In this document: piece after piece, positions 3,775-23,787 of the stretch
Numbering within the stretch: the first letter of the stretch is position 1
Layout of the letters: each line of letters starts with the position of its first letter
Source: a virus
Lineage: Duplodnaviria > Caudoviricetes
Strand: one strand, 5' to 3'
Virus record (IMG/VR): IMGVR_UViG_3300030005_000010
Location: 1-24,801 of that record
Length of the DNA: 24,801 nucleotides
Notes under the pieces: generated by a model
What the model was told of the DNA's origin: nothing
Databases searched by the model: none
Seen by the model: the letters and a program-made list of their open reading frames with translations, nothing else
Translations under genes and position numbers: made by a program

Positions 3775-3948
3775 TTATTCGTCAACAAATTTCAAGTGTT
3801 TTTTGTAGAAATCTTTTTCGACGTATGATTTATCGGATTGATAAAAAATATCTATTAATTTCTTAAAAATATCAAGTTCCTCTGGTTGAGTTAAAGTTTT
3901 AAATTCTATTGTCTCGGTAAAATATTCTGTATCAATTGTAACTTTCAC
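3775..3948 (-). CDS. Small hypothetical protein, 57 aa (not in ORF track)
   Basis: GTG start overlaps the upstream TGA (GTGA). Reads MKVTIDTEYFTETIEFKTLTQPEELDIFKKLIDIFYQSDKSYVEKDFYKKHLKFVDE* and fills the gap to gp44. Confidence 0.65.
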   Translation of the reverse strand: MKVTIDTEYFTETIEFKTLTQPEELDIFKKLIDIFYQSDKSYVEKDFYKKHLKFVDE

Positions 3949-4202
3949 TTTTTAGCTTCCCCATGTATTTCATTAATTTCATCCTTGAGCATCTTTACTT
4001 CTTTTACAAAATTCACATTGAGTGCTTTTATGCTTTCCAATTCTTTGTGTAAATTGAATATCTCGTCCCGTAATTCATTCCAAGCATATTCAGAATGCGG
4101 ATTTTTCTTCTTTTCCTCGATGAAAAAATCACAAAGCCGGGTGAGGCTAACCAATCTATCACCCGTGCGTCTGTCATTGTTTCGTTCTTTAAATTCCGTC
4201 AC
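3945..4202 (-). CDS. Hypothetical coiled-coil protein
   Basis: GTGA coupling at both ends; heptad-like C-terminal half; AT-rich. Confidence 0.65.
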   Translation of the reverse strand: MTEFKERNNDRRTGDRLVSLTRLCDFFIEEKKKNPHSEYAWNELRDEIFNLHKELESIKALNVNFVKEVKMLKDEINEIHGEAKK

Positions 4203-4411
4203 GGATACCCATGCCTAAAAAATGGCCCCTGCCCGTCCAGTATTCCAAAACAAGACAATGCGTAGAGCAAAATCAGCAAGCCCACCAAAATCCGTATCAG
4301 GGCAATAATCTTTGGGGGGAGCGGTAGAAACTGGGCAAACACGTATTCTAAAACAAATAAAATTATGAGGGCCACAATCGCGTAAATGATGACTCCGATA
4401 AGACAAGACAC
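4199..4411 (-). CDS. Small two-TM membrane protein
   Basis: Two hydrophobic helices separated by LPLPPKI; begins 2 nt after the upstream stop. Confidence 0.7.
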   Translation of the reverse strand: MSCLIGVIIYAIVALIILFVLEYVFAQFLPLPPKIIALIRILVGLLILLYALSCFGILDGQGPFFRHGYP

Positions 4412-4413
4412 AG

Positions 4414-4596
4414 CTATATCCTAGTAGTTGGTTTAGTTTCCCTGAACAGGTGCGTTAACCAGTTTTCTTTATGCGCCTCCAGCTCAAGCGCGTCTTCTTC
4501 CGCCTGTTTTTGCAACTCGTCAAAATGATCACGCTCCGCAAGAACATCTTCCGAAAACTGATACAGCGCGTCTTTTAGATATTTAGGTATTTCCAT
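4414..4596 (-). CDS. Hypothetical acidic protein, ~60 aa
   Basis: ATG at 4596 preceded by AAGGA. The ORF-track start at 4656 lies inside a hairpin. Confidence 0.6.
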   Translation of the reverse strand: MEIPKYLKDALYQFSEDVLAERDHFDELQKQAEEDALELEAHKENWLTHLFRETKPTTRI

Positions 4597-4623
4597 TTCA
4601 ATTTCCTTACAAAATTTGTTGAT

Positions 4624-4660
4624 AAAAACCTGTTGCGGTGCAGTTAGAAACCACAACAGG
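4624..4660 (-). terminator. Putative intrinsic terminator
   Basis: Minus strand CCTGTTGTGGT-10 nt-ACCGCAACAGG followed by TTTTTAT. Confidence 0.55.
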
Positions 4661-4697
4661 AAACTAGCAGGTACTGATCTGTTTGTTTTTTAGGGGA

Positions 4698-4752
4698 TGC
4701 ACCGGCAACCTTGGGTATAAGGGTTCGGCGATGGATTAACCTAGCCGGTGCA
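4698..4752 (-). ncRNA. c4-like (c4-2-type) three-way-junction phage RNA, copy 2
   Basis: TGCACCGGC-TAGG…CCGAA-C-CCTT(ATACCC)AAGG-TT-GCCGGTGCA; same layout as 17529-17580. Confidence 0.55.
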
Positions 4753-4765
4753 AAACTTTTGCGGC

Positions 4766-4793
4766 GTAGAGACGCAAAATCTTGCGTCTCTAC
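4766..4793. repeat. GTAG-type REP palindrome, copy 1
   Basis: GTAGAGACGCAA-AATC-TTGCGTCTCTAC. Confidence 0.92.
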
Positions 4794-4807
4794 GTGAGCA
4801 ACATCGG

Positions 4808-5161
4808 CTAAACGATTGAATCCGGTATGATTGCGTCGATTGCATTAACTGCATCCTGAACAGCCACAACAGAAGCGGCTTGTTCGTCAGTCAATTCAAC
4901 AGCGGCTAATTGTTCGGTTAATTTATCAATCGCCGTTTGTAATTCAGCTAATTTTGTGATGATTTCCTGATCAATTTTGGTGAGTTGGTCTTTGATCGAA
5001 TTATTAATTGTGAGCAGTTCTTCTAATTTCATGATTATTTCTCTCTCTAGGTGGGTTATAAGATACTTCGGTTCTTCTTTTTTGTCTTCATTTCTTTCAT
5101 GATGTTTCATTAATAAAGCCTTGATTATATTAATTAATTTATTAATCAAAGTTATGTCCAC
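4808..5161 (-). CDS. Hypothetical phage coiled-coil protein (true start may be the internal MKLEELL at 5032)
   Basis: Amphipathic heptads ending in IDAIIPD; co-oriented and overlapping the upstream ORF. Confidence 0.65.
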   Translation of the reverse strand: MDITLINKLINIIKALLMKHHERNEDKKEEPKYLITHLEREIIMKLEELLTINNSIKDQLTKIDQEIITKLAELQTAIDKLTEQLAAVELTDEQAASVVAVQDAVNAIDAIIPDSIV

Positions 5162-5546
5162 GGTATAACAATTTAGGTTGGCAGAACAGAATCACATTTT
5201 TTGCGTGACCCCCATACTCAAAATTCTTTCGGTTTTTTCCGGTCCGAATGTTCCAAACATCGCCTTTAACAACGTCATTCGTCGTGGCCGCTGCCCTGTC
5301 TGCATAGTGTTGTAGGCGTTTTTCGGGGTCCTGATAGCCCTTATGTTTTACCGGGTTGGTTTTGACCCAGGCCTCAAAAATAGCGCGGTCATAACCCATA
5401 TTAGGCCTGCTGGTTTTGTCGTTATGGATTCTAACGGCAGGGGTTGGGATCAGCCCTTTCTTTTCCATGTTCCACAGCGACTTTACGCCCACGCCAAGCA
5501 GGTTTGCGCCTTCTAAGCGGGTGATGTAATGTATCAAGTCGCTCAT
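5142..5546 (-). CDS. Putative excisionase/MerR-like helix-turn-helix protein
   Basis: YITRLEGANLLGVGVKSLWNMEKKGLIPTP…YDRAIFEAWV fits a Xis/AlpA-type winged HTH. ATG at 5546 overlaps a TGA (ATGA). Confidence 0.65.
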   Translation of the reverse strand: MSDLIHYITRLEGANLLGVGVKSLWNMEKKGLIPTPAVRIHNDKTSRPNMGYDRAIFEAWVKTNPVKHKGYQDPEKRLQHYADRAAATTNDVVKGDVWNIRTGKNRKNFEYGGHAKNVILFCQPKLLYRGHNFD

Positions 5547-5629
5547 AGCCACCACGCAAAAATCAACAGCAAAATCAAAATAACCCAGATCATCCATTCG
5601 TCAACGGTATCAAGTATTTTCAGGATCAT
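5543..5629 (-). CDS. Putative 28-aa single-TM micropeptide (not in ORF track)
   Basis: MILKILDTVDEWMIWVILILLLIFAWWL*; overlaps the upstream ORF end and is ATGA-coupled to the HTH gene. Confidence 0.5.
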   Translation of the reverse strand: MILKILDTVDEWMIWVILILLLIFAWWL

Positions 5630-5852
5630 GTGAATTTTTTTTACAACTTTTTTTTAAGTCATGTATTTCAATATGTTCGACGATCAATTTAAACACTTTT
5701 CCCGATAAAAAATTCAGTAAATCAGGGTAATTATGATGAATAATATGCACCTCGACGATTTTTACCTTGTCATTTTCAAAACGCCAATCGACAATCAAAT
5801 CCAGGTTGTAAAGCGCCATTTTGTGCTTATGTACAATTGAATCCGGTTTCAT
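5610..5852 (-). CDS. Hypothetical protein
   Basis: 80-aa ORF in a very AT-rich, co-oriented stretch. Confidence 0.6.
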   Translation of the reverse strand: MKPDSIVHKHKMALYNLDLIVDWRFENDKVKIVEVHIIHHNYPDLLNFLSGKVFKLIVEHIEIHDLKKSCKKNSHDPENT

Positions 5853-5890
5853 GTCTATTTTTTAGAAAGTATCTAAATATGTTGTATATG

Positions 5891-6076
5891 TTATTGATAC
5901 TTATCATTATTCTCAACATCATCAAAGCGCCGGTTTCTGTCATTGCCCTTTGATTGGTGCTGAATTCGTTTGTCTTCGCAATCGGCGCAAATATAATTAC
6001 CCTGGCGTGGGGTATGAATTTTTGAATCTTTGTGAGCCCAGTGTTGCCCATACCGGCAGTAAAAATCATTGCTCAT
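5891..6076 (-). CDS. Small putative Zn-binding protein
   Basis: ATGA overlap with the gpN stop; C-x3-QH…CADC motif. Confidence 0.55.
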   Translation of the reverse strand: MSNDFYCRYGQHWAHKDSKIHTPRQGNYICADCEDKRIQHQSKGNDRNRRFDDVENNDKYQ

Positions 6077-9452: not shown

Positions 9453-9662
9453 TTATCCCCGTAGAGACGCAAGATTTTGCGTCTCTACCTCGATTTTGAA
9501 AATACAGCCAGATTCTTTGTGCATACCGGTTTCGATATAGGAGTAATGCCGATCTATTGGGTCACGTCCTATGGTCACGTACCGCAAACAGGCGGCTGTT
9601 TCGGTGCAATCGCGACCTTTGCAGCGCGTCAAATTGGCTGGCAGTGTGTCAGCAGGTGTCAT
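9453..9662 (-). CDS. Small Cys-rich hypothetical phage protein whose C-terminus is encoded by a REP
   Basis: RCxGxxCxxxxxCLRY motif; ATGA-coupled to the chaperone frameshift product; ends VETQNLASLRG. Confidence 0.65.
   Translation of the reverse strand: MTPADTLPANLTRCKGRDCTETAACLRYVTIGRDPIDRHYSYIETGMHKESGCIFKIEVETQNLASLRG
9461..9488. repeat. GTAG-type REP palindrome, copy 3
   Basis: GTAGAGACGCAA-GATT-TTGCGTCTCTAC. Confidence 0.92.
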
Positions 9663-10439: not shown

Positions 10440-10479
10440 GATATTTTCTCCAGATTAGGGCGAGAATTTCGCCCGATAA

Positions 10480-11052
10480 TTAAATTGCCCAGCCTCTCAT
10501 CAAGGCTAATCCCGTATTAAATGCCCGATATTCAAAATTAGCCAAACCTGAACCGGTCATTTTCCGATTGAGTACCACGCTGACATTGGTATTGACAGTC
10601 GTTATTGTTGCTCTATATAAAATTGTTCCGCTGCCATCACCACCTAAATCTATAGCCGCGCCGCCTGCGGTTAAAGCAAGCTGGAATATATTAGTCGTTG
10701 CATTGACGACATAATACGGCGTATAGATAGCAATGCCCGTCGTGGTGACCAGCGTTGCAAACGAGACTAGATCGCCATTTGCCAAGCCATGTGCGGTTGC
10801 CGTTACCGTATCGTTCGCGCCTTGCAGCATACAGGCCAAAGCCGTGGTTAAGGGACTGCCGACACCGTTAACCTGCATTCCCGACAAAACACCTGTCGTT
10901 GAAGCCATTGTGATAAGGGTTGAGCCTGCTGTCGATGTCCCGGTAATAATAACCGGGGGCGGCGCTAATACTAATTGGGCAAGGTAGGCGACATCTTGCC
11001 CCGTCAATACTTGGTAACCGCCTACCGTTGTCCCTGTTTTTAACTGTGCCAT
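10480..11052 (-). CDS. Accessory virion protein with an HGLxxGD beta-rich domain
   Basis: TAHGLANGDLVxF…YYVVN…FQLALTAGGAAIDL; TAATG-coupled to the upstream ORF. Confidence 0.7.
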   Translation of the reverse strand: MAQLKTGTTVGGYQVLTGQDVAYLAQLVLAPPPVIITGTSTAGSTLITMASTTGVLSGMQVNGVGSPLTTALACMLQGANDTVTATAHGLANGDLVSFATLVTTTGIAIYTPYYVVNATTNIFQLALTAGGAAIDLGGDGSGTILYRATITTVNTNVSVVLNRKMTGSGLANFEYRAFNTGLALMRGWAI

Positions 11053-11312
11053 TAGATATTTCCCACCTGTTCAGTCAATTGGCAAGCCATCAAACCTGAT
11101 TGATCATTCAATCTTAAGATATTAGCCATCTCAATAAACTCATAGGCTTTAATATTGCCTTGGGTGTCCAATGATACGGGCCCGTTTCCTTCAATAAACT
11201 CGCCTAAACAACGGAGTTCTAAATCAGAGGTTATTCTAACGAGAACAATCCCTAGAAGGGGCCCTAGATTAACCTGATAAAATGCTGGGTTAAAGGCAGG
11301 ACTAAAGGCCAT
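11052..11312 (-). CDS. Hypothetical protein with a repeated EFIE motif
   Basis: Tightly packed ORF; three short beta-like repeats ending EFIE/EFIE/QLTE. Confidence 0.6.
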   Translation of the reverse strand: MAFSPAFNPAFYQVNLGPLLGIVLVRITSDLELRCLGEFIEGNGPVSLDTQGNIKAYEFIEMANILRLNDQSGLMACQLTEQVGNI

Positions 11313-11313
11313 C

Positions 11314-12705
11314 TTAAATTAAAGGGCTATAGGCAGTCACTTCAAGGGGTGTAATCGTTTGATAACCAACGACTGATGGATGCGTTGCATCCGGTGAATC
11401 GACAACGCCCCAAGCTAGCGCAATGGGGTTTACAAAACGTACATTCGCATTGCCGTAGGCGGTCACCAAATTACCGATTGTTATATTATCAGCTGTTTTA
11501 AGCGTCGTCGTTGAACCCGCCTCGCCCAACACGGTTAAATTTCCACGTACAATGATTTTTCCATAACCTTTCGTTAACATTGCGGTGATTATGTTTGTTA
11601 TATTCGTTTGCGCCGTTGCATCCAATACGCCAATATCATTAGCGCCTAGTTGAAGGATGCAAACATCAGTAGATGCCACGGTTTTTGCGGCTAACAAGGC
11701 CGTCATTCTGGCAACAAACCCGGCTATGTTTTCTCCGGATATGCCATAAGTGGAACCTACCAAACCTAATGCGGAAGCCACGGACATCGTATCAACCTGC
11801 CCGTCTGAATTGGACGCGCCTACCCCGGCGCCTGCTGTCGTTGATGAACCATATTGATCCATCCGCCTTTTTGTACCGCAATCGACGACCGCCGCATCAA
11901 GCCCGACAGCAAAAACGTTAAACGTCCCCCGTGCTGAGCTTTGCCATACGTTATAGGTGTGTGTAGCGCCATCCAGTGGAATGTGGGTCGTATGATAGAC
12001 CTGAGTCGCCAAAGAACACTTGTACCGGGTGTAAGCCGCTCCGTCTATAGAAACAAAAACATACGGATCAGGATTAATGACGACCATCCGGGTTGCGTTA
12101 GTTTTAAATTTTACCGACGGTATGGCAGTCCCTGAAACCAGGCTTATTGATCCTGGCAAGTAAGCGGGGACATAGTTAGTGCCGCCGCCTCCGGTTGCCG
12201 CCACATTACACGAACTCCAAGCAGTTAAGGCATTGCCGTCATTGCATTGAACCCACGTTAAAACGGGTACAATAGACGGCGAATAGGCTCCGTCAACAAT
12301 AAACAACGGATTAGCTTCCGTGCTTGTGTTCGTCATCCACTTTGGGTTGAATGCAGAGCCTTTGAACCGTATACAGACTTGATACTGGCTATGGGGTTTT
12401 CCAGTAAAAATAGTATAGAAACCTGGCATTGAGGAAAGGTAAGAGGGCGTAAACCAAAGGCCATCATCAATGCTGACTTCCAAAAGAGCGGCGACAGTGC
12501 CCGATCCTGAAGAAGCCGTCATATATAAATCTGTCCCGGTCACCCAGCCATTCCAGGTCGTCGCGCCATTGACGATGCCATAGAGCGTATTAGCTGTAGT
12601 AGTCGCATCCAATGGCCCAGTAAAGCCTGATGAAACTTGAGCGTACGTATACTTCTTCCTGACTAAGGCAGAAGCTACTAGACTACGGGCATTGAACGGC
12701 CTCAT
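11314..12705 (-). CDS. SGNH/GDSL hydrolase-domain protein with a beta-rich N-terminal region
   Basis: Block I YGSSTT, block II GISG, block III LGAND, block V DATHP. Confidence 0.8.
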   Translation of the reverse strand: MRPFNARSLVASALVRKKYTYAQVSSGFTGPLDATTTANTLYGIVNGATTWNGWVTGTDLYMTASSGSGTVAALLEVSIDDGLWFTPSYLSSMPGFYTIFTGKPHSQYQVCIRFKGSAFNPKWMTNTSTEANPLFIVDGAYSPSIVPVLTWVQCNDGNALTAWSSCNVAATGGGGTNYVPAYLPGSISLVSGTAIPSVKFKTNATRMVVINPDPYVFVSIDGAAYTRYKCSLATQVYHTTHIPLDGATHTYNVWQSSARGTFNVFAVGLDAAVVDCGTKRRMDQYGSSTTAGAGVGASNSDGQVDTMSVASALGLVGSTYGISGENIAGFVARMTALLAAKTVASTDVCILQLGANDIGVLDATAQTNITNIITAMLTKGYGKIIVRGNLTVLGEAGSTTTLKTADNITIGNLVTAYGNANVRFVNPIALAWGVVDSPDATHPSVVGYQTITPLEVTAYSPLI

Positions 12706-13682
12706 TAATTTTGCTCAGGTGTTAGCTCTACAAAATAAGTTTGACCGCTGGCAGGCGTGAAAACGTCTTTGGTTTGCAATGCCCCATATAAAGTCCTGGA
12801 GGCGGCGGCACATAAAAACGCTAATCGGCAGGTCGCGTTTAGAGACTCTGCGATGTCTGAACCCGCCCCTTCGGTTGCCATCGGGTCAAAATCGATATAA
12901 CCGATTTTATTGGCTTTATTAGCCGATAAATTTGTATACGCCGCGCCATCGTTAATAGCGGTCGGCGCTACATTGTAAAGATGCAATCGATAACGCGCCG
13001 TGTTGGTGCTTTGATTGGTTATTAATCGCGCTTTCGTGATATAGCCGCTCCCCGCGTTTACTCTGCCCATATTGGCAAACGTGAGAATAGTGGGCGCAGT
13101 TGTTGAATCCGAGATTGACGCTAAAGCCGCATAAGCCGTTGCGTTCGCAGGTCTGTTGAACGTGGCCGTCACGACGATACTGCTGCCTGAAACAAAGCCT
13201 ATGTGGTTCTCACTGGGATAAAGTCCTGCTTGAATAGCAGATAACAAGGTGGCTTGCGCAGCTGCTGTTGCAGGCGCTGCAATAATCTTGGCTAAAATAG
13301 CGGCAAGATTACCCCCGTTCTCTAAGGCTAAGGTTCCAAGGGCTGTTGTTTGCGTATCTTGTTTTGCAGAAGTCGCAACACTACCTATATCGGCCACATT
13401 AACGTATAAAGAACCATCTGAATCTAATTGCAAAGCTGACCCTTGCCCGGATGCCAACGTTAATCTTGATGCGTTATAAATACCCCCGCCAATTAATGAT
13501 TTGCTGGGTGCGCTCCCTGCGCCTATGGTTCCTTCCGCATTGGTTGCAACAGGAATCGTGGGCTGATCGCTTGCCAATACGACAGGGAGACTGGCAGCAG
13601 CGAGCGCTTGTCCGAGTGCGGGATTCGTATTGATAGTCTGCGGCACGCCGTCAGAATCTAAAACTTTTATAGTGGTTGGCAT
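12705..13682 (-). CDS. Accessory virion protein; C-terminal domain paralogous to 19088-19720
   Basis: SLPVVLASDQ, ATSAKQD stalk motifs; shares HIG, RPAxxTAY, GSGYIxKxRL, RLH and FTPASGQ with its paralogue. Confidence 0.75.
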   Translation of the reverse strand: MPTTIKVLDSDGVPQTINTNPALGQALAAASLPVVLASDQPTIPVATNAEGTIGAGSAPSKSLIGGGIYNASRLTLASGQGSALQLDSDGSLYVNVADIGSVATSAKQDTQTTALGTLALENGGNLAAILAKIIAAPATAAAQATLLSAIQAGLYPSENHIGFVSGSSIVVTATFNRPANATAYAALASISDSTTAPTILTFANMGRVNAGSGYITKARLITNQSTNTARYRLHLYNVAPTAINDGAAYTNLSANKANKIGYIDFDPMATEGAGSDIAESLNATCRLAFLCAAASRTLYGALQTKDVFTPASGQTYFVELTPEQN

Positions 13683-13692
13683 AATAAATTTT

Positions 13693-14181
13693 TCACTGAA
13701 TTAGGGTTATGAGTCCAGAACCTTGTATCACACTAAAATCCATCGTTCCTGCCGAGTAGGAAATGGGTGTCGTAAAGTTACGCTGTAAGGTACACAGCAA
13801 ATAGGCGCCATTGTAATAACAACTCAGTACATCAATTGAACCCGCTTTAGTGCTCAACGATGAACTGCCCGAAACTTTATACAGTGTGTCAAACGTCAGC
13901 AGCCGCTTACCGGTTGAATCTTGCGTAAATATAAATAACAGCGTGTCACCCTCAACCAAATGCGTCGGGTTTTCTAAAAAATGATTGCCTGACAGAACCG
14001 CTTTAAATGACGTAGATACTGAGGTATCAACGGCGATATTAGTGCCGGTCTGTGCTAATTCATGGGGTATTGAATTACCGACGACATGGCTATCATTCCA
14101 GTTGGAGGGCTGTATTAAGGTAAGGTCTGAACTGTCAGGCTTAGCACTGGCAAACCGGTGAGTTATCTGTATCTCTCGCAT
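13693..14181 (-). CDS. Fibre-associated hypothetical phage protein
   Basis: N-terminal ITHxFxSxKPD…QPSNWNxxH; domain LxGNxxLxNPT…QDSTGxRxL…LSTxAGSIDVL recalled from phage fibre proteins. Confidence 0.65.
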   Translation of the reverse strand: MREIQITHRFASAKPDSSDLTLIQPSNWNDSHVVGNSIPHELAQTGTNIAVDTSVSTSFKAVLSGNHFLENPTHLVEGDTLLFIFTQDSTGKRLLTFDTLYKVSGSSSLSTKAGSIDVLSCYYNGAYLLCTLQRNFTTPISYSAGTMDFSVIQGSGLITLIQ

Positions 14182-14186
14182 GGTTA

Positions 14187-14504
14187 TCAGCCAAGATAGG
14201 TAAAGTCTAAACTATTCGTATTAGGGTTATAAGCCAGACGATATTTATTATTAAAATCAATAGTTCCAGTTATATTGGGTAAGTTAATTATGGCATTCAA
14301 ATTACTGATACTACCCGTATCCCCCTTGTCACCTTTTGCCCCTGTCGCCCCTGTCGCCCCTGTTGCACCCGTTGCCCCTGTCGCCCCTGTTGCGCCCGTT
14401 GACCCCGGCGGACCTTGTTCGGCTGTCTTTATTACATTGACCGATTGTGGGTCTGTAACAAGTACATCAATGACCGGCGTGACTAAAACAATTGTGTCGG
14501 TCAT
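14187..14504 (-). CDS. Short collagen-like (Gly-X-Y) protein
   Basis: GPP GST (GAT)6 GAK GDK GDT; ATGA-coupled to the upstream gene. Confidence 0.8.
   Translation of the reverse strand: MTDTIVLVTPVIDVLVTDPQSVNVIKTAEQGPPGSTGATGATGATGATGATGATGAKGDKGDTGSISNLNAIINLPNITGTIDFNNKYRLAYNPNTNSLDFTYLG
14336..14400. repeat. 9-bp tandem repeat encoding (Gly-Ala-Thr)n
   Basis: GCCCCTGTC / GCCCCTGTT / GCACCCGTT units. Confidence 0.85.
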
Positions 14505-14854
14505 CGCGTTATTTGTTCGCTAAACGGCAGCATACCGGAACACAAGCGCACCGTGTCCCCGTTTAAAAAATAGATTTCCAGATCATAAAAACCGCCCGCG
14601 CCTATTAGCGCGTCGGTATCATGAGCGGTGACATAAAAGTCTATTTTCCCCGTGGACGGCGTAAGCGTAATGCGGCTGTTCTCGGTGCTAAGTTCAAGCA
14701 AAGCCGTTATCGCCGCAGGGTCCTCACGTACCTGTAATTTTGCGGTACAATTAGTCAGGTTAATCGGTTGGCCGTTTGAATCCTGCCAGATCAGCGTATG
14801 CCGATACGTTGCGCCTTTTTCAATAACAGGTAGGTTTAATTTAGCGGCCGTCAT
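14501..14854 (-). CDS. Ig-like fibre adaptor protein (BppU-N-like)
   Basis: IEKGATY…WQDSNGQPINLTNCTAKLQVR…YDLEI…VRLxxG…xITR pattern, usually found before collagen/fibre genes. Confidence 0.72.
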   Translation of the reverse strand: MTAAKLNLPVIEKGATYRHTLIWQDSNGQPINLTNCTAKLQVREDPAAITALLELSTENSRITLTPSTGKIDFYVTAHDTDALIGAGGFYDLEIYFLNGDTVRLCSGMLPFSEQITR

Positions 14855-14885
14855 GATTTCTTAATCTATTCGCTTGGAATTATTT

Positions 14886-14913
14886 GTAGAGACGCAAAAT
14901 ATTGCGTCTCTAC
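14886..14913. repeat. GTAG-type REP palindrome, copy 4
   Basis: GTAGAGACGCAA-AATA-TTGCGTCTCTAC, 9 nt after the sheath stop. Confidence 0.92.
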
Positions 14914-14922
14914 GGCTTTTTT

Positions 14923-16440
14923 TTACGCGGCGGCCTGAACAGGATACTGTAGACGGAATTGATTGAGCACAGCGAAAACCCTTAGCTGATTCACGTAATC
15001 TGGAGGGAATAGCACATTGACGCGATTGGGATTAAGCCCATCACGTTCGACAATCAGATAGGTATTAAACGCTTCTTTATTCTCAACAATACCTAACATC
15101 ATCAGTGTATCGTAAGCCGCCAACAGCTCGCCGCGAATCACTGATGGCGTGACAATGGCGTTGCCTGGTCCAAAACGGGTGCCGTCATTGGCCAGTTTGT
15201 GGCGTGCGTATTTCTGCGTGATGGCGTAGCGCAGATAGCGCAACACGTAGGCCGCTGTATGCAAGGTTTCCGAATCCAGATAACTGGGATCGGCCTGTGC
15301 AAAGGTGTTTTTCTGATAAGTCGTGATGGCCCGCTCAATCTGGATCACGCCGGATACGATAAAGCTGGTGGCGATGCCGTAGTTAAGCAGGACATTGCGT
15401 TCAGACCAGATAAACTTTTTCCCCGCCCGTGGAGCCATCAAGCCGGTGAGTTCACCGGTTTGCGTGGGTCGTGCCGGATCGGCGGCGATATAAACCGCAT
15501 TGCGTGCGCCGTAAGCCGCTGCGTATTCCCAACAGGGATGCTGGCAATCAAGATCGATGGCGGCAATGGTATGGTGCGGATCGTTACGCAAACCACCGGC
15601 GGTGCTGAGTGCGCCTAATGCGCCGCGTAAAGCTGAATAACAATGCCCGTAAACTTGCCGAGACCACGACCAGCGTCCGGAAGAATCGCCATATTCAGTG
15701 GCGAATACATCCAGGCTGCCGCTGTCGGTGAAAGGATGAATAACAAAGTCGTAGGCGTCATCGCCCATGGCCGTAATCGCGCCGGTCAGTGTCGGGTTAG
15801 TTGCGCCTGTTGTAAGGAAATTACTGCCTGTATAGGTCAGCGCCACGCCAGTGGGCAGCGCTTCACCGCCTGCACTGCCCCGATAGGAATCCAGCACGGC
15901 AATATCGTTGCCGGTCGCCCCTTTCCAACGGCAGGTGAGCGTTACGACAGCGCTTGCCACGGTTGACGTGACCGGCAAATCCAGCGCCGCGTTGATGGCG
16001 GCGTTAATGTTGGTCGCGATGGCGGTAGCAATATCGGTACTGCCGACCGCGACTTGCACGCGTTGGCCGCCGATATAAAGATTGATCGTACCCGCCGCCG
16101 TGGCAGGACCGGTTACCGTGATCGTCCCGGTCGCCTGCACGCCGCCACCAGCATCAGCCACGGCCATGCACCAAAGCTCGCCGGTCGGATCGGACAGGCG
16201 GTAAATGGCATGCATACGGGCCAGCATGGAGCCTTGACCAAACAGGGCTATGGCCTGGCTGGTTTGCGAAACCAGATAAGGCACGTTGGCGACGGCAGTA
16301 CCGGCGGCCAGTTTTTGCCCGATCATCAAGGATCTCAACGACTGGGTGAAATAACCGGCTTGGCTATTGTCCATTTCCGCATAAAACAGCGGGACGCGAA
16401 CGCCGTTACCGGCGGGAATATAATTAAATGAGACGGCCAT
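14923..16440 (-). CDS. Contractile tail sheath protein, Mu gpL family
   Basis: VSFNxIP…RVPLFYAEMDNSQA, FGxGSMLARM, DPARPTQT, IERAITTYQKN, KYARHKLANDGT, PDYVNQLRVFA. Confidence 0.97.
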   Translation of the reverse strand: MAVSFNYIPAGNGVRVPLFYAEMDNSQAGYFTQSLRSLMIGQKLAAGTAVANVPYLVSQTSQAIALFGQGSMLARMHAIYRLSDPTGELWCMAVADAGGGVQATGTITVTGPATAAGTINLYIGGQRVQVAVGSTDIATAIATNINAAINAALDLPVTSTVASAVVTLTCRWKGATGNDIAVLDSYRGSAGGEALPTGVALTYTGSNFLTTGATNPTLTGAITAMGDDAYDFVIHPFTDSGSLDVFATEYGDSSGRWSWSRQVYGHCYSALRGALGALSTAGGLRNDPHHTIAAIDLDCQHPCWEYAAAYGARNAVYIAADPARPTQTGELTGLMAPRAGKKFIWSERNVLLNYGIATSFIVSGVIQIERAITTYQKNTFAQADPSYLDSETLHTAAYVLRYLRYAITQKYARHKLANDGTRFGPGNAIVTPSVIRGELLAAYDTLMMLGIVENKEAFNTYLIVERDGLNPNRVNVLFPPDYVNQLRVFAVLNQFRLQYPVQAAA

Positions 16441-16443
16441 AAC

Positions 16444-16626
16444 TTACCCCTTGTCCTTTTCCGCTTTAACCGGCGCATCGACCGGCGGCGTTGTTTCTAT
16501 TACGTCGCCATCTTCCAGACGGCGCAGCCAGTATTGATGTGGTTCGACGTTTCGCCCTTCGGGAGGCAAAATATCGTTGCGATCCGGATCAGTCACAAAC
16601 AGTCCGGAAGCGGGTTTTACAAACAT
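16444..16626 (-). CDS. DUF2635 / Mu gp38-like protein
   Basis: MFVKP..G..V.DP…LP.EGRNV…YWLRRLxDGDV, immediately before the sheath. Confidence 0.93.
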   Translation of the reverse strand: MFVKPASGLFVTDPDRNDILPPEGRNVEPHQYWLRRLEDGDVIETTPPVDAPVKAEKDKG

Positions 16627-16634
16627 GGTAACTC

Positions 16635-17228
16635 CTAGGGCAAAACGCCGGTGGGGGGTGATTTTACAATATGTTCTATGCGCCCGTCCGGGCCGGGGTA
16701 ATGCAAATTAGGGTCGGCGGCAGGATCGATGTCGTCAACGTTAATCGTTGCACCAACAAAATGCGGCAAGGCGGCCAGTTCAACGCCCTGCCAACCGTCT
16801 TCCGGGGCTATTTCCATGTACGCGCCAAAATCGAATTGATACCATAGGCGAGAGCGGTCCAAATCAAGCAGGTTGCCACCCTGGTATTCGACGCCGCGAT
16901 AGGTCACGGGGTCGGGTTGCCAGCCTATTAAGGCCTTCCAGAGCTCAGCCCGAATGCTGTCATGCGCAGAATTAATAGCTGCCTGACCGCGTTCATCCGG
17001 CGTGTTGCTGAGCGCTACGATGATGGCAAATGATTCGGTAATCGGCTGCCTGACATCGTTAAGACTCATCCGTTCGCCGGGGTTGTCGTCCAACGGGATC
17101 ACGTAGGCGGCCGGGACGGTCAGGTTGCCCGCTTCATCCAAACGCTTGAAACGCGCAGAACCGGCCACGCGCCCGCCGAAAGACGGGCAATACGTGCGCA
17201 GTTGAGCAATGACGAGGTTTAAATTCAC
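16635..17228 (-). CDS. Tail terminator / completion protein (Mu gp37-like position)
   Basis: IAQLRxxCPxFGGRVAG, PAAYVIPLDD, ELWKALxGW, LWYQFDF. Confidence 0.85.
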   Translation of the reverse strand: MNLNLVIAQLRTYCPSFGGRVAGSARFKRLDEAGNLTVPAAYVIPLDDNPGERMSLNDVRQPITESFAIIVALSNTPDERGQAAINSAHDSIRAELWKALIGWQPDPVTYRGVEYQGGNLLDLDRSRLWYQFDFGAYMEIAPEDGWQGVELAALPHFVGATINVDDIDPAADPNLHYPGPDGRIEHIVKSPPTGVLP

Positions 17229-17235
17229 AATTTAG

Positions 17236-17495
17236 TTATTCGCCATGACACACAAATTCTTTGTGGATATGTTCCCTTACTATTTTTATATTCATTTCTG
17301 CTTCTTCTAAAGTATCAAACCGTTTTGAATAAGTGCATAATATTTTGAATATAAAACAATCCTTAGATACCCATGAATTAAACAATCTACGGTATCTCCA
17401 ACCTTTACCCGTCTAGCTCTTGGCTTTATCCATTTTACGATTCCGGTTTGTGGATCGTAATTTATGTGTTCTCTTACTATTTCTTGCGTTAACAT
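17236..17495 (-). pseudogene. Internally deleted HNH-AP2 homing endonuclease
   Basis: N-terminus MLTQExVRExxxYDPQTG…GYLRI…YYA. In another frame, an AP2-type C-terminus RFDTLEEAE…REHIHKEFVCHGE*. The HNH core is absent. Confidence 0.8.
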
Positions 17496-17528
17496 TCTGA
17501 CACCTCATCAAAATACCTACTTTAAAAA

Positions 17529-17580
17529 TTGTGTCAGGAGGGTAGGTTTCCCTCTTTTCAGCCGCTAAACCTAGACACAA
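17529..17580 (-). ncRNA. c4-like (c4-2-type) three-way-junction phage RNA, copy 1
   Basis: TTGTGTC-TAGGTTTAGCGGCTGAAAA-GAGGG(AAACCTA)CCCTC-CT-GACACAA; a -10-like TATAAC lies 4 nt upstream. Confidence 0.65.
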
Positions 17581-17606
17581 AACTGTTATAACGTATTGAT
17601 TATACT

Positions 17607-19088
17607 CTAGTTATGGCTCACTGCCCATCCTGCTGCTACTAATGCAGCTTTCGCTGCAAGCCCTGTCGCTGATGGAGTTGCGTTAGTCCCGCCTGTCATA
17701 TTTAGAGTGCCGTTAATCAAACTTGGCGTATTCAATCTCGACTGATTAATAGACACCAGAATATTATCAACGGATGTTTGAGACAATGCACAGTTTCTAA
17801 AGGAATTTGTATAAACAGTAGCTTTAGCATTATCAAAAAAGTTAGGAGGGAATGTGGTCAATGAAGTATCCCCGTCCCATGATAAGTTAAAATTGGTAGC
17901 GGCTATCGTATTCAATAGCGGAAAGATAACTAAATTAATTAAAACTCTAAATGCTGATGTAAAGTTGGTAACTTTAGTGGTGTCAATACTTGGAAAAGTC
18001 GGTACAGGTAATTGATACCATGCAAGACTTAAATTTGTTGCGTTAGACGTGTTAATTTTTGGAAAATATTTTGCACTAAACCAGGGATAGGTTTGAAATG
18101 CGCTAGTAAAATTTGAGGTTGCCGCATAGCTAGTATCAAAAATCGTCGTCAATGTGCCATTAACCAAACCAGCACAAACAGAAGGCGTTAGATCACTCGG
18201 ATAATATGTCCAACTACTGATATTAATAATGCCCTGTTCACACAGTAAAATCGTCGTCGGCGTTGGAATATATTGATATTCAACAGGATTTACACCCGCT
18301 TGCGCATTGGGCAAATAGAGATATGCACTATTATCAATGTTTTTATTGTACCGAATGGCATACGTGCCTTCGCCCGTTAATAAGGGATTCCACACACCGA
18401 TATTACCAGGAGCCGATGAGTATTTTCCAGATGCTTTGATAACAAAAGTGCCTTGCTCGGCGTTGTACCAACTTAAACCTACACCTGTTAAACTGGCAAC
18501 ATCGGCCACACGAGGCGTATTGTTAGGAATATAACTAGACATAGTAGGACCAGCTTCAAACTGTCCATTAGTGTTAGTTCCAGAAAATGTCAGCGTTAAA
18601 GTCCCGGCTGTAGCTGGTACTGTTAATGAAACTCTATCCGTTGCGCCTGTTCCTGTTAGTGTTCCTGTCGCTGTTCCTGTTAAAACACATGTGCCTGTCC
18701 CCCACATTGAAACAGTATAGGGCTGTGCAGTCGTCGTTATATTCTGCGTTGCTGGTGTAGCGGGTGTTACCAGTAAATTAGTACGGGCTTCCTCCGCCAA
18801 CAAGGTAATTGGCAATGGTATTGCCGAGCCATCATTTAATATTGCGCTCCAATTATTCTGACCGATACGCCTTGCATTGTTAAAACGTGGTTCATTAGCC
18901 GCACACGTTGTTAATATCGGCAAATCGCCTGCTACGGCTGTGGGTGCATAAGCCATGCAGGTTGCGGTAATGTTACGCGCCCACGTTATGCGGGAATCAA
19001 TCTGTGGCGTGGTGGCATAATTTTGGTAAAAGCTGGGAATTGCAGCAGCTTTAGACGTAAATAATCGCCTTTCACGAAGCCGGAACAT
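17607..19088 (-). CDS. Accessory virion protein: head-spike/fibre-like N-terminal region plus C-terminal LRR-like surface repeats
   Basis: LLAEEARTNLL, QFEAG…SSYIP…RVAD, WYNAEQGTF; ~22-aa repeats FPxIxTxxxTNFxxAW; cap NCALSQTSVDNIL…GWAV. Confidence 0.72.
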   Translation of the reverse strand: MFRLRERRLFTSKAAAIPSFYQNYATTPQIDSRITWARNITATCMAYAPTAVAGDLPILTTCAANEPRFNNARRIGQNNWSAILNDGSAIPLPITLLAEEARTNLLVTPATPATQNITTTAQPYTVSMWGTGTCVLTGTATGTLTGTGATDRVSLTVPATAGTLTLTFSGTNTNGQFEAGPTMSSYIPNNTPRVADVASLTGVGLSWYNAEQGTFVIKASGKYSSAPGNIGVWNPLLTGEGTYAIRYNKNIDNSAYLYLPNAQAGVNPVEYQYIPTPTTILLCEQGIINISSWTYYPSDLTPSVCAGLVNGTLTTIFDTSYAATSNFTSAFQTYPWFSAKYFPKINTSNATNLSLAWYQLPVPTFPSIDTTKVTNFTSAFRVLINLVIFPLLNTIAATNFNLSWDGDTSLTTFPPNFFDNAKATVYTNSFRNCALSQTSVDNILVSINQSRLNTPSLINGTLNMTGGTNATPSATGLAAKAALVAAGWAVSHN

Positions 19089-19720
19089 TAGTTATTGTCC
19101 ATCACAGCCGTTATATTGAATTTTTGCCCAGATGCCGGGGTGAATCCGTCCAAGGCTTCATAAACGACAAACAGATCGCGTGATCCATTGGCCGCAGTAA
19201 CGGCTATTCGACAGTTTAAATCCAATGTCCGACTCATATCGGAATTGGTAGTATCGGCTGCTGTTATCATCGCGGGCATATCCCAATAACCCAGGCGCTT
19301 GTCTGAATCAGCGTAAAGTTCTTTATACGGCGCGTTATCTGCTGCTACTGTCGCGGTGTTGACATTGAAAATATGCAGTCTCAATCGTGGCGTAATTGAT
19401 TTTTTATCAGTGACCAGACGCAGTTTAACGATATAACCACTGCCGCTAGCCACCCTGAAAATATTGGCTAACTGCACGGGTGTTGTCGTTGTCGCGTTAT
19501 TGCTGACCACATCACCAGCCGTATAAGCCGTGGTGTCGGCTGGCCGTGTCATTTCGGCGGAAATCGTAAGCATATTGCCGCCGACTTCACCTATATGGGC
19601 CTCGCCCGACGCTAACGCGCCTGATGCTGATTTAGTTAACATGGCGTTAGTTGCCGCATCAACAAAAACGGGTATATCACCGCCGCCCACTGCGTTGGAT
19701 TGTCCACGTAATAAGCTCAT
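19088..19720 (-). CDS. Accessory virion protein, paralogue of the 12705-13682 C-terminal domain
   Basis: AGGA RBS; shared motifs as listed for 12705-13682; TAATG-coupled to the downstream gene. Confidence 0.78.
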   Translation of the reverse strand: MSLLRGQSNAVGGGDIPVFVDAATNAMLTKSASGALASGEAHIGEVGGNMLTISAEMTRPADTTAYTAGDVVSNNATTTTPVQLANIFRVASGSGYIVKLRLVTDKKSITPRLRLHIFNVNTATVAADNAPYKELYADSDKRLGYWDMPAMITAADTTNSDMSRTLDLNCRIAVTAANGSRDLFVVYEALDGFTPASGQKFNITAVMDNN

Positions 19721-20165: not shown

Positions 20166-20533
20166 GTTATTGCCCCCAAATCCTTGCATTCAACCATCGT
20201 AAACATCTGCGCGTCGCTGCTATTCGTTGTCCGCACGACGCGAAAGCGCCGGTTGCCTTGTGAATAATCAATAACATGCTGGCCCGTTATTTCTTCCGTC
20301 CGGGTGCCTGGGCCATAGCGCAACCAGATACGGTGCGTGATGTCCTCACCGATTTGTTTCGCGCCATAATACGCTTCGCCCAGAACCGGCTGAATTTTTG
20401 CCCAACGGGTGATACCGGCATCAAAATTCTGGTCGATGCCAAAACCAATATTGGCGGTGTCCGTCCAGCGCCGAATGGTGACGCGGCGCACCAGTTCGCC
20501 GGTGTCCGGCCAGCGGGCGACAGCGGCTGTCAT
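20162..20533 (-). CDS. Head-tail adaptor / head closure protein (SPP1 gp16-like)
   Basis: GELxRRVTI, WAKIxP, ITHRIWLRY; synteny. Confidence 0.9.
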   Translation of the reverse strand: MTAAVARWPDTGELVRRVTIRRWTDTANIGFGIDQNFDAGITRWAKIQPVLGEAYYGAKQIGEDITHRIWLRYGPGTRTEEITGQHVIDYSQGNRRFRVVRTTNSSDAQMFTMVECKDLGAIT

Positions 20534-21411
20534 AGGATTACCATCCGGTAAGGATCAAGCAACCGGTCAACATAGGGGTTATTGGTGATCACGCCAGGCG
20601 TATTGATCAATTGACCTCTGTATGAATATCGGGTTTCAACCGCCATCAATAGCCAGGCTAATAGTCCGCCGGGTATTTCCCCGGCGCTGCCGTTGAAGCC
20701 GGTTTGCCCGACAAAATTAAGACCGGTTCCCACGTTGGTAATATCGATTACAGCGCCGCCGAATGTTGCAGCCAGTGTGTAAACGCCGGGACTGACAACA
20801 GACTGGATGAAGTAATCGGTCTTAATCGTTAATGGCGCTGGCAACGCGCCGCCGGAATTGCTAAGCCTGACGGTGTCGCCTACCAACAGCGTTTTCCAGC
20901 CGCTGATAGCAACGGTGTTTGACGTTGCATTGGCAACAAACGCCGCGACATAGCCCGCGTCGAAAGTCACGCGCACCGATCCTATTTGCGGCAAGGTAAT
21001 CGGCCAAATCTTGCCGAATACCGGCGTAATCCGGGGCGGATCGCACGTAAGGTCAACGGTGTAATCCGTGGTCGGCATCGTTTGCGTGCTGCCATCCATC
21101 GCGGTATATTCGATGCTGATAACCTGTATAAGCGGGCCAACCGGCATCTGAATGGCGTGCCGTGGAATGCCGAACGCTTTGCCCATGGGTACGCCCATCA
21201 AACTCGGGCCAGGGAATGCGTCAAGGATGTACTGATAACGCGCGGCCACTAATTGCCGCTGGGTTTCCATTTGCGCACTGGCCACCGCTTGCGGCAGATA
21301 GATAGTGGTAATCAGATTGTCGTCGTCGGTGATGTCCTGCCGCAAATGTTGACGTACATCGGCGATGTGCAAGGGCAGCGCAACCGGCGGCGTGAGTATT
21401 TTTAGCGGCAT
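20530..21411 (-). CDS. Head-tail connector (phiE125 gp8 / HK97 gp6-like) with an inserted ~80-aa domain
   Basis: PPxxxPLxxxDVRQHLR…DDxLI, ETxRQL, WP…VRVTFxAGY, [insert], IPxxLxxWLL…Y, VDRLLDPYR. Confidence 0.88.
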   Translation of the reverse strand: MPLKILTPPVALPLHIADVRQHLRQDITDDDNLITTIYLPQAVASAQMETQRQLVAARYQYILDAFPGPSLMGVPMGKAFGIPRHAIQMPVGPLIQVISIEYTAMDGSTQTMPTTDYTVDLTCDPPRITPVFGKIWPITLPQIGSVRVTFDAGYVAAFVANATSNTVAISGWKTLLVGDTVRLSNSGGALPAPLTIKTDYFIQSVVSPGVYTLAATFGGAVIDITNVGTGLNFVGQTGFNGSAGEIPGGLLAWLLMAVETRYSYRGQLINTPGVITNNPYVDRLLDPYRMVIL

Positions 21412-23729: not shown

Positions 23730-23748
23730 AAATATTAATTTTTGTTTT

Positions 23749-23787
23749 GTAGAGACGCAATATTTTGCGTCTCTACGGCGTCTCTAC
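23749..23787. repeat. GTAG-type REP palindrome, copy 6, plus an extra half copy
   Basis: GTAGAGACGCAA-TATT-TTGCGTCTCTAC (23749-23776), then GCGTCTCTAC (23778-23787). Confidence 0.92.

What the first reader, a model, noticed from the sequence alone, without database searches (positions are those of the whole stretch)
11314..19720. Repeated two-gene module: conserved ~170-aa domain TAATG-coupled to an exchangeable cargo protein
Seen: the C-terminal ~170 aa of 12705-13682 and most of 19088-19720 align (HIG.V.G, RPA..TAY, RV..GSGYI.K.RL.T, R.RLH..NV, GY.D..M, SD, CR.A, SR.L, FTPASGQ, terminal N; roughly 35-40% identity by eye). They lie in two separate insertions. Each stop overlaps the next start as TAATG. 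The partners are unrelated to each other (463-aa SGNH esterase; 493-aa spike/LRR-like protein), but both start with a short basic-hydrophobic leader (MRPFNARSLV…, MFRLRERRLF…). Inference: a modular display system in which the conserved domain is an adaptor that docks the partner's N-terminal leader onto the virion, so receptor-binding or enzymatic tips can be swapped. I know of no named family for this pairing.
Basis: partly seen in the sequence, partly recalled or inferred. Interest (0 to 1): 0.8.

Follow-up and report, generated by a model that had tools for sequence, protein, structure and literature searches.

The report
Plug-and-socket mount for phage fibres
This phage carries two copies of a widespread, unnamed protein domain, each followed by a different fibre or enzyme gene that starts with a short arginine-rich tag, and the domain likely acts as a socket that grips the tag so that swappable host-binding parts can be hung on the virus particle.

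Summary
The two domains are 38% identical over 189 aa (E 1e-37), both junctions are TAATG, and the partners are unrelated. The domain is a predicted single jelly-roll with 4,852 relatives at the 50%-cluster level and no Pfam, PHROG, NCBIfam or PDB sequence family. In relatives the next gene usually starts with an Arg-rich then hydrophobic leader: 34 of 48 against 26 of 247 background genes, cross-validated AUC 0.82. A frozen motif matched only 5 of 16 new, mostly more distant clusters. TAATG is common but not the rule (20 of 48). Cargo bodies vary and include homologues of the RcGTA head-spike fibre, which is known to dock by an N-terminal peptide. One natural fusion joins domain and fibre and lacks the leader. 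Best reading (0.65): a virion socket that docks the cargo's leader, working like RcGTA Rcc01079/Rcc01080 and the KP32 branching-domain/peptide pair but belonging to neither family by sequence. Binding, oligomer state and presence in particles are inferred, not shown. Verdict: new variant of a known kind, interest 0.65.

The parts
19088..19720 (-). Socket 1, 210 aa: short low-confidence N-terminal arm plus C-terminal jelly-roll domain (about residues 46-210)
19086..19090 (-). TAATG stop/start overlap, module 1
17607..19088 (-). Cargo 1, 493 aa: Arg-rich leader (residues 1-12), diverged GTA head-spike-fibre domain (18-211), phrog_34853 C-terminal part (309-493) whose homologues carry BspA-type LRR or DUF285 hits
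12705..13682 (-). Socket 2, 325 aa: N-terminal 'hook' motif (IKVxDxxG), Ala/Thr-rich stalk, C-terminal jelly-roll domain (about residues 157-325)
12703..12707 (-). TAATG stop/start overlap, module 2
11314..12705 (-). Cargo 2, 463 aa: leader plus C-terminal SGNH/GDSL esterase domain (285-451) with catalytic motifs present
13693..14181 (-). 162-aa linker: tail-fibre C-terminal-like domain ending in a 'DFS-x3-(N/G)S' tag that co-occurs with the hook of the next gene
14187..14504 (-). 105-aa collagen-repeat protein; a collagen-like start is fused to the 162-aa homologue in L207
14501..14854 (-). 117-aa LtfC-like beta-sandwich (phrog_1084 E 1e-20; phrog_3304 E 5e-6; Pfam LtfC below cut-off), first gene of the inserted cassette
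10453..14884 (.). Insertion between sheath and tube genes that holds module 2; absent from relative L085
10480..11312 (-). Two further ORFs of the insertion (86 aa and 190 aa, joined by a third TAATG); the 190-aa ORF has a tail-fibre-type segment; role not worked out

Best explanation
The conserved domain is a predicted jelly-roll that likely works as a socket on the virus particle, gripping the Arg-rich N-terminal leader of the protein encoded next and so displaying a swappable glycan-binding or glycan-modifying cargo. Inferred steps: (1) close spacing or overlap of the two genes gives matched amounts of both proteins; (2) the socket oligomerises (probably a trimer at the end of a short stalk) and is anchored through its variable N-terminus, directly or through a linker protein; (3) the cargo's first 10-18 residues bind the socket, Arg against conserved acids and the 3-4 hydrophobic residues in a pocket; (4) the flexible cargo makes first, reversible contact with capsule, EPS or O-acetylated surface glycan. 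Because only the leader must be kept, recombination behind it swaps the cargo. In the window, module 1 (neck genes) would carry a spike-fibre/LRR-like cargo, and module 2 would end a chain LtfC-like anchor, collagen, tagged linker, socket, SGNH esterase.
For: Leader in 34 of 48 clusters against 26 of 247 background genes (motif written after seeing the data). Leave-one-cargo-family-out AUC 0.82, null 0.40-0.57. All six Arg codons are used, so the signal is at protein level. Leader in 16 of 25 cargo-body clusters. Rhizobium phages RHEph16 and Y38 keep the socket and an Arg-rich leader in front of visibly different cargo bodies. Cargo L009 matches RcGTA fibre Rcc01080 (E 2.8e-22); NF048003 also hits L016, L100, L042. 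That fibre docks by residues 2-10 (PMC7296036, passages). Reverse test: of 49 distinct spike-fibre proteins only L124 and L180 have the domain upstream, and by eye only these have the leader (L180 was in the query). Fusion P0413 joins domain and fibre, and its match to the split homologue starts at cargo residue 19. Best fold matches include capsid cement proteins. 14 columns of alignment A2 are at least 80% acidic. 14 of 25 loci have head, packaging or connector genes nearby, and a homologue lies two genes after the DJR capsid gene of vir556.
Against: The frozen motif matched only 5 of 16 new clusters (p 0.028 against background). 14 of 48 first-set clusters lack it and 6 of 54 have no close ATG-started next gene. 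In at least two loci the leader is on the second gene downstream (L019; L205). Fold scores are middling (best Z 7.0, none at 8 or more) and carbohydrate-binding modules score about as well. The conserved acids could be a Ca2+/sugar site. There is one fusion only, on 2 contigs, and it could be a chance in-frame deletion. No proteomic or EM evidence was found for any member.
Confidence: 0.65

Rival explanations
1. The jelly-roll is itself a cement, decoration or lectin knob. The cargo's leader docks on another virion protein, and the two genes travel together because they are assembled at the same place.
For: Fold matches to Pam1, KHP40 and GP4 capsid proteins and to CBMs. The domain ends the chain in 252 of 252 and 43 of 44 homologues, like a fibre knob. 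phi24B gp84 docks an esterase directly on the major capsid protein (bioRxiv 2026.04.10.717836, passages).
Against: The leader tracks this domain across unrelated capsid types and is missing where the same fibre body follows other genes or is fused to the domain.
Confidence: 0.17
2. The domain is an assembly or folding chaperone that binds the leader transiently and is not kept in the particle.
For: Gene adjacency and coupling are typical of fibre/chaperone pairs (recalled).
Against: N-terminal extensions of very different length (median about 57 aa, up to 372), one with coiled-coil hits, look like structural stalks. One chaperone would have to serve unrelated folds.
Confidence: 0.08
3. The pair is a non-virion moron: the leader is an export signal and the cargo modifies the host surface during lysogeny.
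For: Lower GC and an insertion; an SGNH esterase cargo; twin arginines in many leaders.
Against: 0 of 48 leaders have the Tat consensus and none has a 12-residue stretch of mean hydropathy 2.0 or more. The module occurs in cultured Schitoviridae and Autographiviridae, lytic groups from recall.
Confidence: 0.05
4. The leader is only a by-product of translational coupling or a DNA recombination handle.
For: TAATG is enriched (20 of 48 against 29 of 247).
Against: The leader lies downstream of the stop, persists at spacings from -1 to +14 nt and uses all six Arg and all six Leu codons. The domain's fixed terminal Asn codon plus TAA may favour the overlap by itself (205 of 254 end in Asn).
Confidence: 0.05

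Closest known systems
RcGTA head spike: base Rcc01079 plus fibre Rcc01080 (PDB 6TB9/6TBA/6TSU/6TUI; PMC7296036)
   Same: Jelly-roll base; a fibre held only by its first residues; some cargoes here are homologues of Rcc01080; the fibre binds capsule (PMC7296036 passages; PMC10218006 abstract).
   Different: The RcGTA base is a six-strand pentamer and its peptide is an Ile/Leu-Gly repeat. Here the domain is about 170 aa with ten predicted strands, sits at the end of a variable stalk, has no PDB sequence match at E 5 or less, and the leader is Arg-rich then hydrophobic. Cargoes include SGNH, LamG, propeller and CBM bodies.
Klebsiella phage KP32/K11/KP34 branching domain plus conserved peptide of RBP2 (PMC13352976)
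   Same: A short conserved N-terminal peptide docks a swappable second receptor-binding protein; deleting it abolishes incorporation (passages).
   Different: There the socket is a T4 gp10-like domain inside RBP1 on a podovirus tail. Here it is a free-standing C-terminal jelly-roll in its own gene, with no Pfam or PHROG hit, found in myo-, sipho- and podo-type phages and one DJR virus.
Trimeric capsid cement proteins of Pam1 (7EEL), KHP40 (7DOU), Ralstonia GP4 (8H89)
   Same: Best structural matches: Z 6.8-7.0, rmsd 3.8-4.9 A over 114-126 residues; N-terminal arm plus beta-sandwich.
   Different: Identity 9-15%; scores are tied with plant-virus capsids and CBMs; the gene is not fixed beside the capsid gene; the passages I read describe no docked peptide on these proteins.
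phi24B gp84 capsid-decorating esterase (bioRxiv 10.64898/2026.04.10.717836)
   Same: An esterase whose N-terminal part attaches to the capsid.
   Different: It uses a folded DUF1737 domain that binds the capsid protein directly, with no separate socket gene, and is cleaved.

Membership tests
RcGTA spike base (Rcc01079) | Sequence homology to Rcc01079 | tested here: not met
   Profiles A2 and A5 give 0 PDB matches at E 5 or less, though the RcGTA spike entries are in that copy; no NCBIfam family shared by the 19 members
RcGTA spike base (Rcc01079) | Jelly-roll fold | tested here: met
   AF2 model, pLDDT 86-97 per block over residues 51-210; fold matches are jelly-rolls. This is the fold class only
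RcGTA spike base (Rcc01079) | Pentamer on capsid vertices | not testable with these tools
   needs cryo-EM
RcGTA spike base (Rcc01079) | Partner leader is an Ile/Leu-Gly repeat | tested here: not met
   Leaders are Arg-rich then hydrophobic
GTA head-spike fibre domain (NF048003), for cargo 17607-19088 | NF048003 above its cut-off | tested here: not met
   No hit for the window cargo; no PDB match
GTA head-spike fibre domain (NF048003), for cargo 17607-19088 | Homology to the family by profile | tested here: met
   Profile of 55 spike-fibre segments: best domain E 1e-9 over residues 18-168, second stretch to 211; a 4-sequence profile missed it
SGNH/GDSL hydrolase, for cargo 11314-12705 | Pfam hit above cut-off and catalytic Ser/Asp/His motifs | tested here: met
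   PF13472 42.2 bits against cut-off 32.9; motifs at 286, 354, 439
SGNH/GDSL hydrolase, for cargo 11314-12705 | Esterase activity | not testable with these tools
   needs an assay
KP32-type branching domain/conserved peptide | T4 gp10-like domain inside RBP1 | tested here: not met
   No Pfam or PHROG hit to either socket beyond two weak unrelated rows at E 0.04-0.05; free-standing gene
KP32-type branching domain/conserved peptide | Conserved N-terminal peptide on exchangeable cargo | tested here: met
   weaker out of sample
KP32-type branching domain/conserved peptide | Peptide needed for incorporation | not testable with these tools
   needs deletion mutants
Pam1/KHP40/GP4 cement proteins | Structural match that stands clear of unrelated jelly-rolls | tested here: inconclusive
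   Z 6.8-7.0, tied with viral capsids and CBMs
Tat/Sec signal peptide, for the leader | S/T-R-R-x-F-L consensus and hydrophobic h-region | tested here: not met
   0 of 48 for both

The most novel reading that the evidence does not exclude
A general, chainable peptide address code for virion accessories. An upstream protein's C-terminal DFS tag catches the socket's N-terminal hook, the socket's jelly-roll catches an Arg leader, and the same fibre bodies carry other leader classes for other sockets. One socket family would thus mount enzymes and lectins on heads, necks or tails across tailed phages and a tailless DJR virus.
Probability: 0.3. Interest if true: 0.82.

Novelty: new variant of a known kind. 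Interest (0 to 1): 0.65.

Why it matters
If true, it gives a function to a large unnamed viral family (4,852 clusters at 50% identity) and a rule for spotting displayed accessory proteins from their first dozen residues. It would explain how phages add or swap glycan-binding and glycan-modifying parts without touching core virion genes. It is testable now in cultured Rhizobium and Caulobacter phages, and a short leader with its socket could serve as a display tag.

Tried and rejected
Complex prediction (3 copies of residues 36-210 plus the 32-residue leader): 'no answer', score 0.00, controls not folded; it carries no weight either way. Single-sequence fold of the 463-aa cargo: pLDDT 31, unusable. 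Rcc01079 is not among the 50 fold rows listed; this is inconclusive. I suspected that the 87-aa gene upstream in RHEph16 and the 124-aa gene in L140 are Rcc01079-like bases; Pfam, NCBIfam, PHROG and PDB searches gave no support, so this stays a resemblance by eye. The first spike-fibre comparisons missed the window cargo. Single-sequence locus searches with cargoes gave one short hit or identical copies only. The genome search draws no relatives for a virus record. Sequencing runs: no RNA holder listed; all 24 peat-metagenome rows are flagged as possible sources, and I laid no reads. Earlier findings by sequence and by place gave nothing. The tree is the quick one; the careful search did not finish. 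The motif count on the set was read by eye, not computed. Rejected: signal peptide and DNA-level motif; recent duplication of the two window copies (38% identity, different subclades, SH-aLRT 97).

Full report
Setting. The window is the structural region of a phage, all on the minus strand: S49-type protease-like gene, holin, HK97-type capsid, neck genes, then a Mu-like contractile tail (terminator, sheath, tube, tape measure, DNA circulation protein) (the protease and baseplate genes are named from sequence and order, not scanned). The held genome is this one contig.

Observation. The two ORFs share 38% identity over 189 aa (E 1.4e-37; score 319 against a shuffled maximum of 68). Both stops overlap the next start as TAATG. 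The partners are unrelated. The 463-aa partner is an SGNH esterase by Pfam and motifs. The 493-aa partner begins with a diverged GTA head-spike-fibre domain (profile of 55 segments, E 1e-9). Relative L085 has module 1 at the same place (83% and 66% identical) and lacks about 10453-14884, so module 2 is a true insertion and module 1 is only GC-poor. The two copies fall in different subclades of a quick tree of 47 domains (SH-aLRT 97), so they were probably acquired separately.

The domain. It has 250 homologues by word search and 4,852 representatives at E 0.001 or less among 1.84 billion. It has no Pfam, PHROG or NCBIfam family above chance and no PDB sequence match. The nearest Atlas clusters are unnamed and 87-93% viral. 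AF2 gives a confident all-beta domain at about residues 46-210 behind a low-confidence arm. Fold searches return single jelly-rolls; the top rows are a GP4 capsid chain and the KHP40 and Pam1 cement proteins at Z 6.8-7.0, tied with plant-virus capsids and CBMs, so only the fold class is shown. The domain ends the protein in 252 of 252 full-domain hits among 254 proteins and 43 of 44 longer homologues, behind N-terminal extensions of up to 372 residues.

The leader. I fetched 112 loci. With the window they gave 120 domain hits. I dropped 8 as partial or lacking a stop and 6 for short flanks; the 106 left form 54 clusters at 75% identity. 48 of 54 have an ATG-started next ORF within 60 nt, 46 of those within -8 to +14 nt, and 34 of 48 match an Arg-then-hydrophobic motif. 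The same rule on other ORF ends in these loci gives 26 of 247; mean Arg in residues 2-12 is 2.2 against 0.6; TAATG is 20 of 48 against 29 of 247. The motif was written after seeing the data, so I ran two stricter tests. Holding out each of 26 cargo-body clusters gave AUC 0.82, with 16 of 26 above the 90th background percentile; six null runs gave 0.40-0.57. On new loci (L124 and six GenBank records; 41 hits, 13 dropped as seen before, 18 clusters of which 2 are fragments without a next ORF), the frozen motif matched 5 of 16 (p 0.028), with TAATG in 3 of 16. The leader is therefore real, strong in the core of the family and looser in distant members. It is not a signal peptide and not a DNA motif.

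Cargo exchange. Cargo bodies fall into 25 blast clusters, 16 with the motif. Pfam names 9 of 46 scanned: LamG (5), CBM_4_9, propeller, arabinofuranosidase-B, DUF4082, plus one doubtful row. Some clusters share a fold, so they are not all independent. Rhizobium phages RHEph16 and Y38 (one genus) keep the socket and an Arg-rich leader before visibly different bodies. In Lullwater and Quill a 40-43-aa gene lies between socket and a GDSL or other large protein. L207 carries the same LtfC-like, linker, socket, SGNH cassette (77, 45, 47 and 29% identity) inverted among Mu-like head genes (those genes named by eye), so gene position does not fix the site on the virion.

Link to a solved system. Cargo L009 matches RcGTA fibre Rcc01080 (E 2.8e-22), and NF048003 hits L009, L016, L100 and L042. 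In RcGTA a pentameric jelly-roll base holds residues 2-10 of that fibre, which binds capsule (PMC7296036, passages; PMC10218006, abstract). Reverse test: 80 loci found through the fibre body gave 49 distinct proteins; the domain occurs in 2 of the 80 (L124, L180), and by eye only those two start with the Arg leader. L180 was in the query, so L124 is the one independent case. P0413 fuses the domain (about residues 11-184) to an NF048003 fibre, and its 48% match to the L124 cargo starts at cargo residue 19: where the link is covalent, the leader is gone. It is one sequence on 2 contigs.

A second pairing. Socket 2 starts with an IKVxDxxG hook and the gene before it ends in a DFS-x3-(N/G)S tag. 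Among 54 loci with an intact 5' side (6 skipped), 5 have both, 0 the hook only, 1 the tag only and 48 neither (motifs written post hoc). In new loci one hook cluster lacked the tag by the strict pattern but shows a variant by eye. This suggests a chain of peptide links and is less well supported than the leader.

Location. Of 25 loci scanned (105 proteins, mostly four genes up and two down; I added eight by eye, and three of the 14 positives rest on those), 14 have head, packaging or connector genes nearby and 3 have tail genes. A homologue (39.5 bits) lies two genes after the annotated DJR capsid gene of vir556, followed by an Arg-rich leader. The head is the likelier site in many members; module 2, led by an LtfC-like gene, may sit on tail or neck. 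None of this is shown on particles.

Mechanism and verdict. Shown: homology, fold class by prediction, gene pairing, leader, cargo exchange, one fusion. Inferred: oligomer, binding, display, glycan targets. I put the socket reading at 0.65. The principle is known from RcGTA and from KP32-type branched receptor-binding proteins (PMC13352976, abstract and passages); phi24B shows another esterase mount (bioRxiv, abstract and passages). Passages of PMC12796354, PMC11440229 and PMC9973310 describe other head fibres and decorations, none resembling this pairing. Eight literature searches showed no description of this family or leader; an unnamed family is hard to find by words, subscription papers are missing, and I read no supplements, where virion proteomes of the cultured phages could lie. 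Novelty: new variant of a known kind; interest 0.65.

Noticed in passing
window 14886-14915 and 9459-9488 (weaker copies near 23748-23779 and 5543-5604): Short palindromic element, REP-like from recall. The 14886 copy marks the upstream edge of the insertion and is present at the empty site in L085.
   Followed up: partly
window 17230-17500: Low-GC broken reading frame that looks like an HNH-endonuclease remnant by eye, between cargo 1 and the tail terminator. L085 has a 115-aa gene there instead.
   Followed up: no
window 20530-21411 and 10480-11052: The head-tail adaptor carries an inserted segment weakly similar to the 190-aa ORF of the insertion (35% over 37 aa, E 0.006); the latter hits tail-fibre PHROGs.
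   Followed up: partly
P0255-P0374 (homologues of window 17607-19088): Related fibre bodies carry several other recurring N-terminal leader classes (Gly/Leu-rich, LRSPL-type, ITPS-type, LINLNL-type); 26 of 120 match the Arg/Lys motif. Possibly one class per socket type.
   Followed up: partly
L113 5471-5876 and L114 3309-3717 (Rhizobium phages RHEph16, Y38): An 87-aa beta-rich gene and a 46-47-aa micro-gene ending in the DFS tag precede the socket, right after RNAP2, where N4 has its decoration gene (recalled).
   Followed up: partly
L117 (dsDNA virus vir556, BK063675): Socket homologue and Arg-leader cargo in an 18.8-kb virus annotated with a DJR capsid and a Methanosarcinales host.
   Followed up: partly
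L093 4174-5229 and L095 10198-11250: A 351-352-aa ORF that looks like a reverse transcriptase by eye lies just downstream of the cargo in these loci; possibly a diversity-generating retroelement acting on the cargo. Not scanned.
   Followed up: no
window 3945-6069: Low-GC block of small ORFs between the DNA-circulation gene and the baseplate genes.
   Followed up: no
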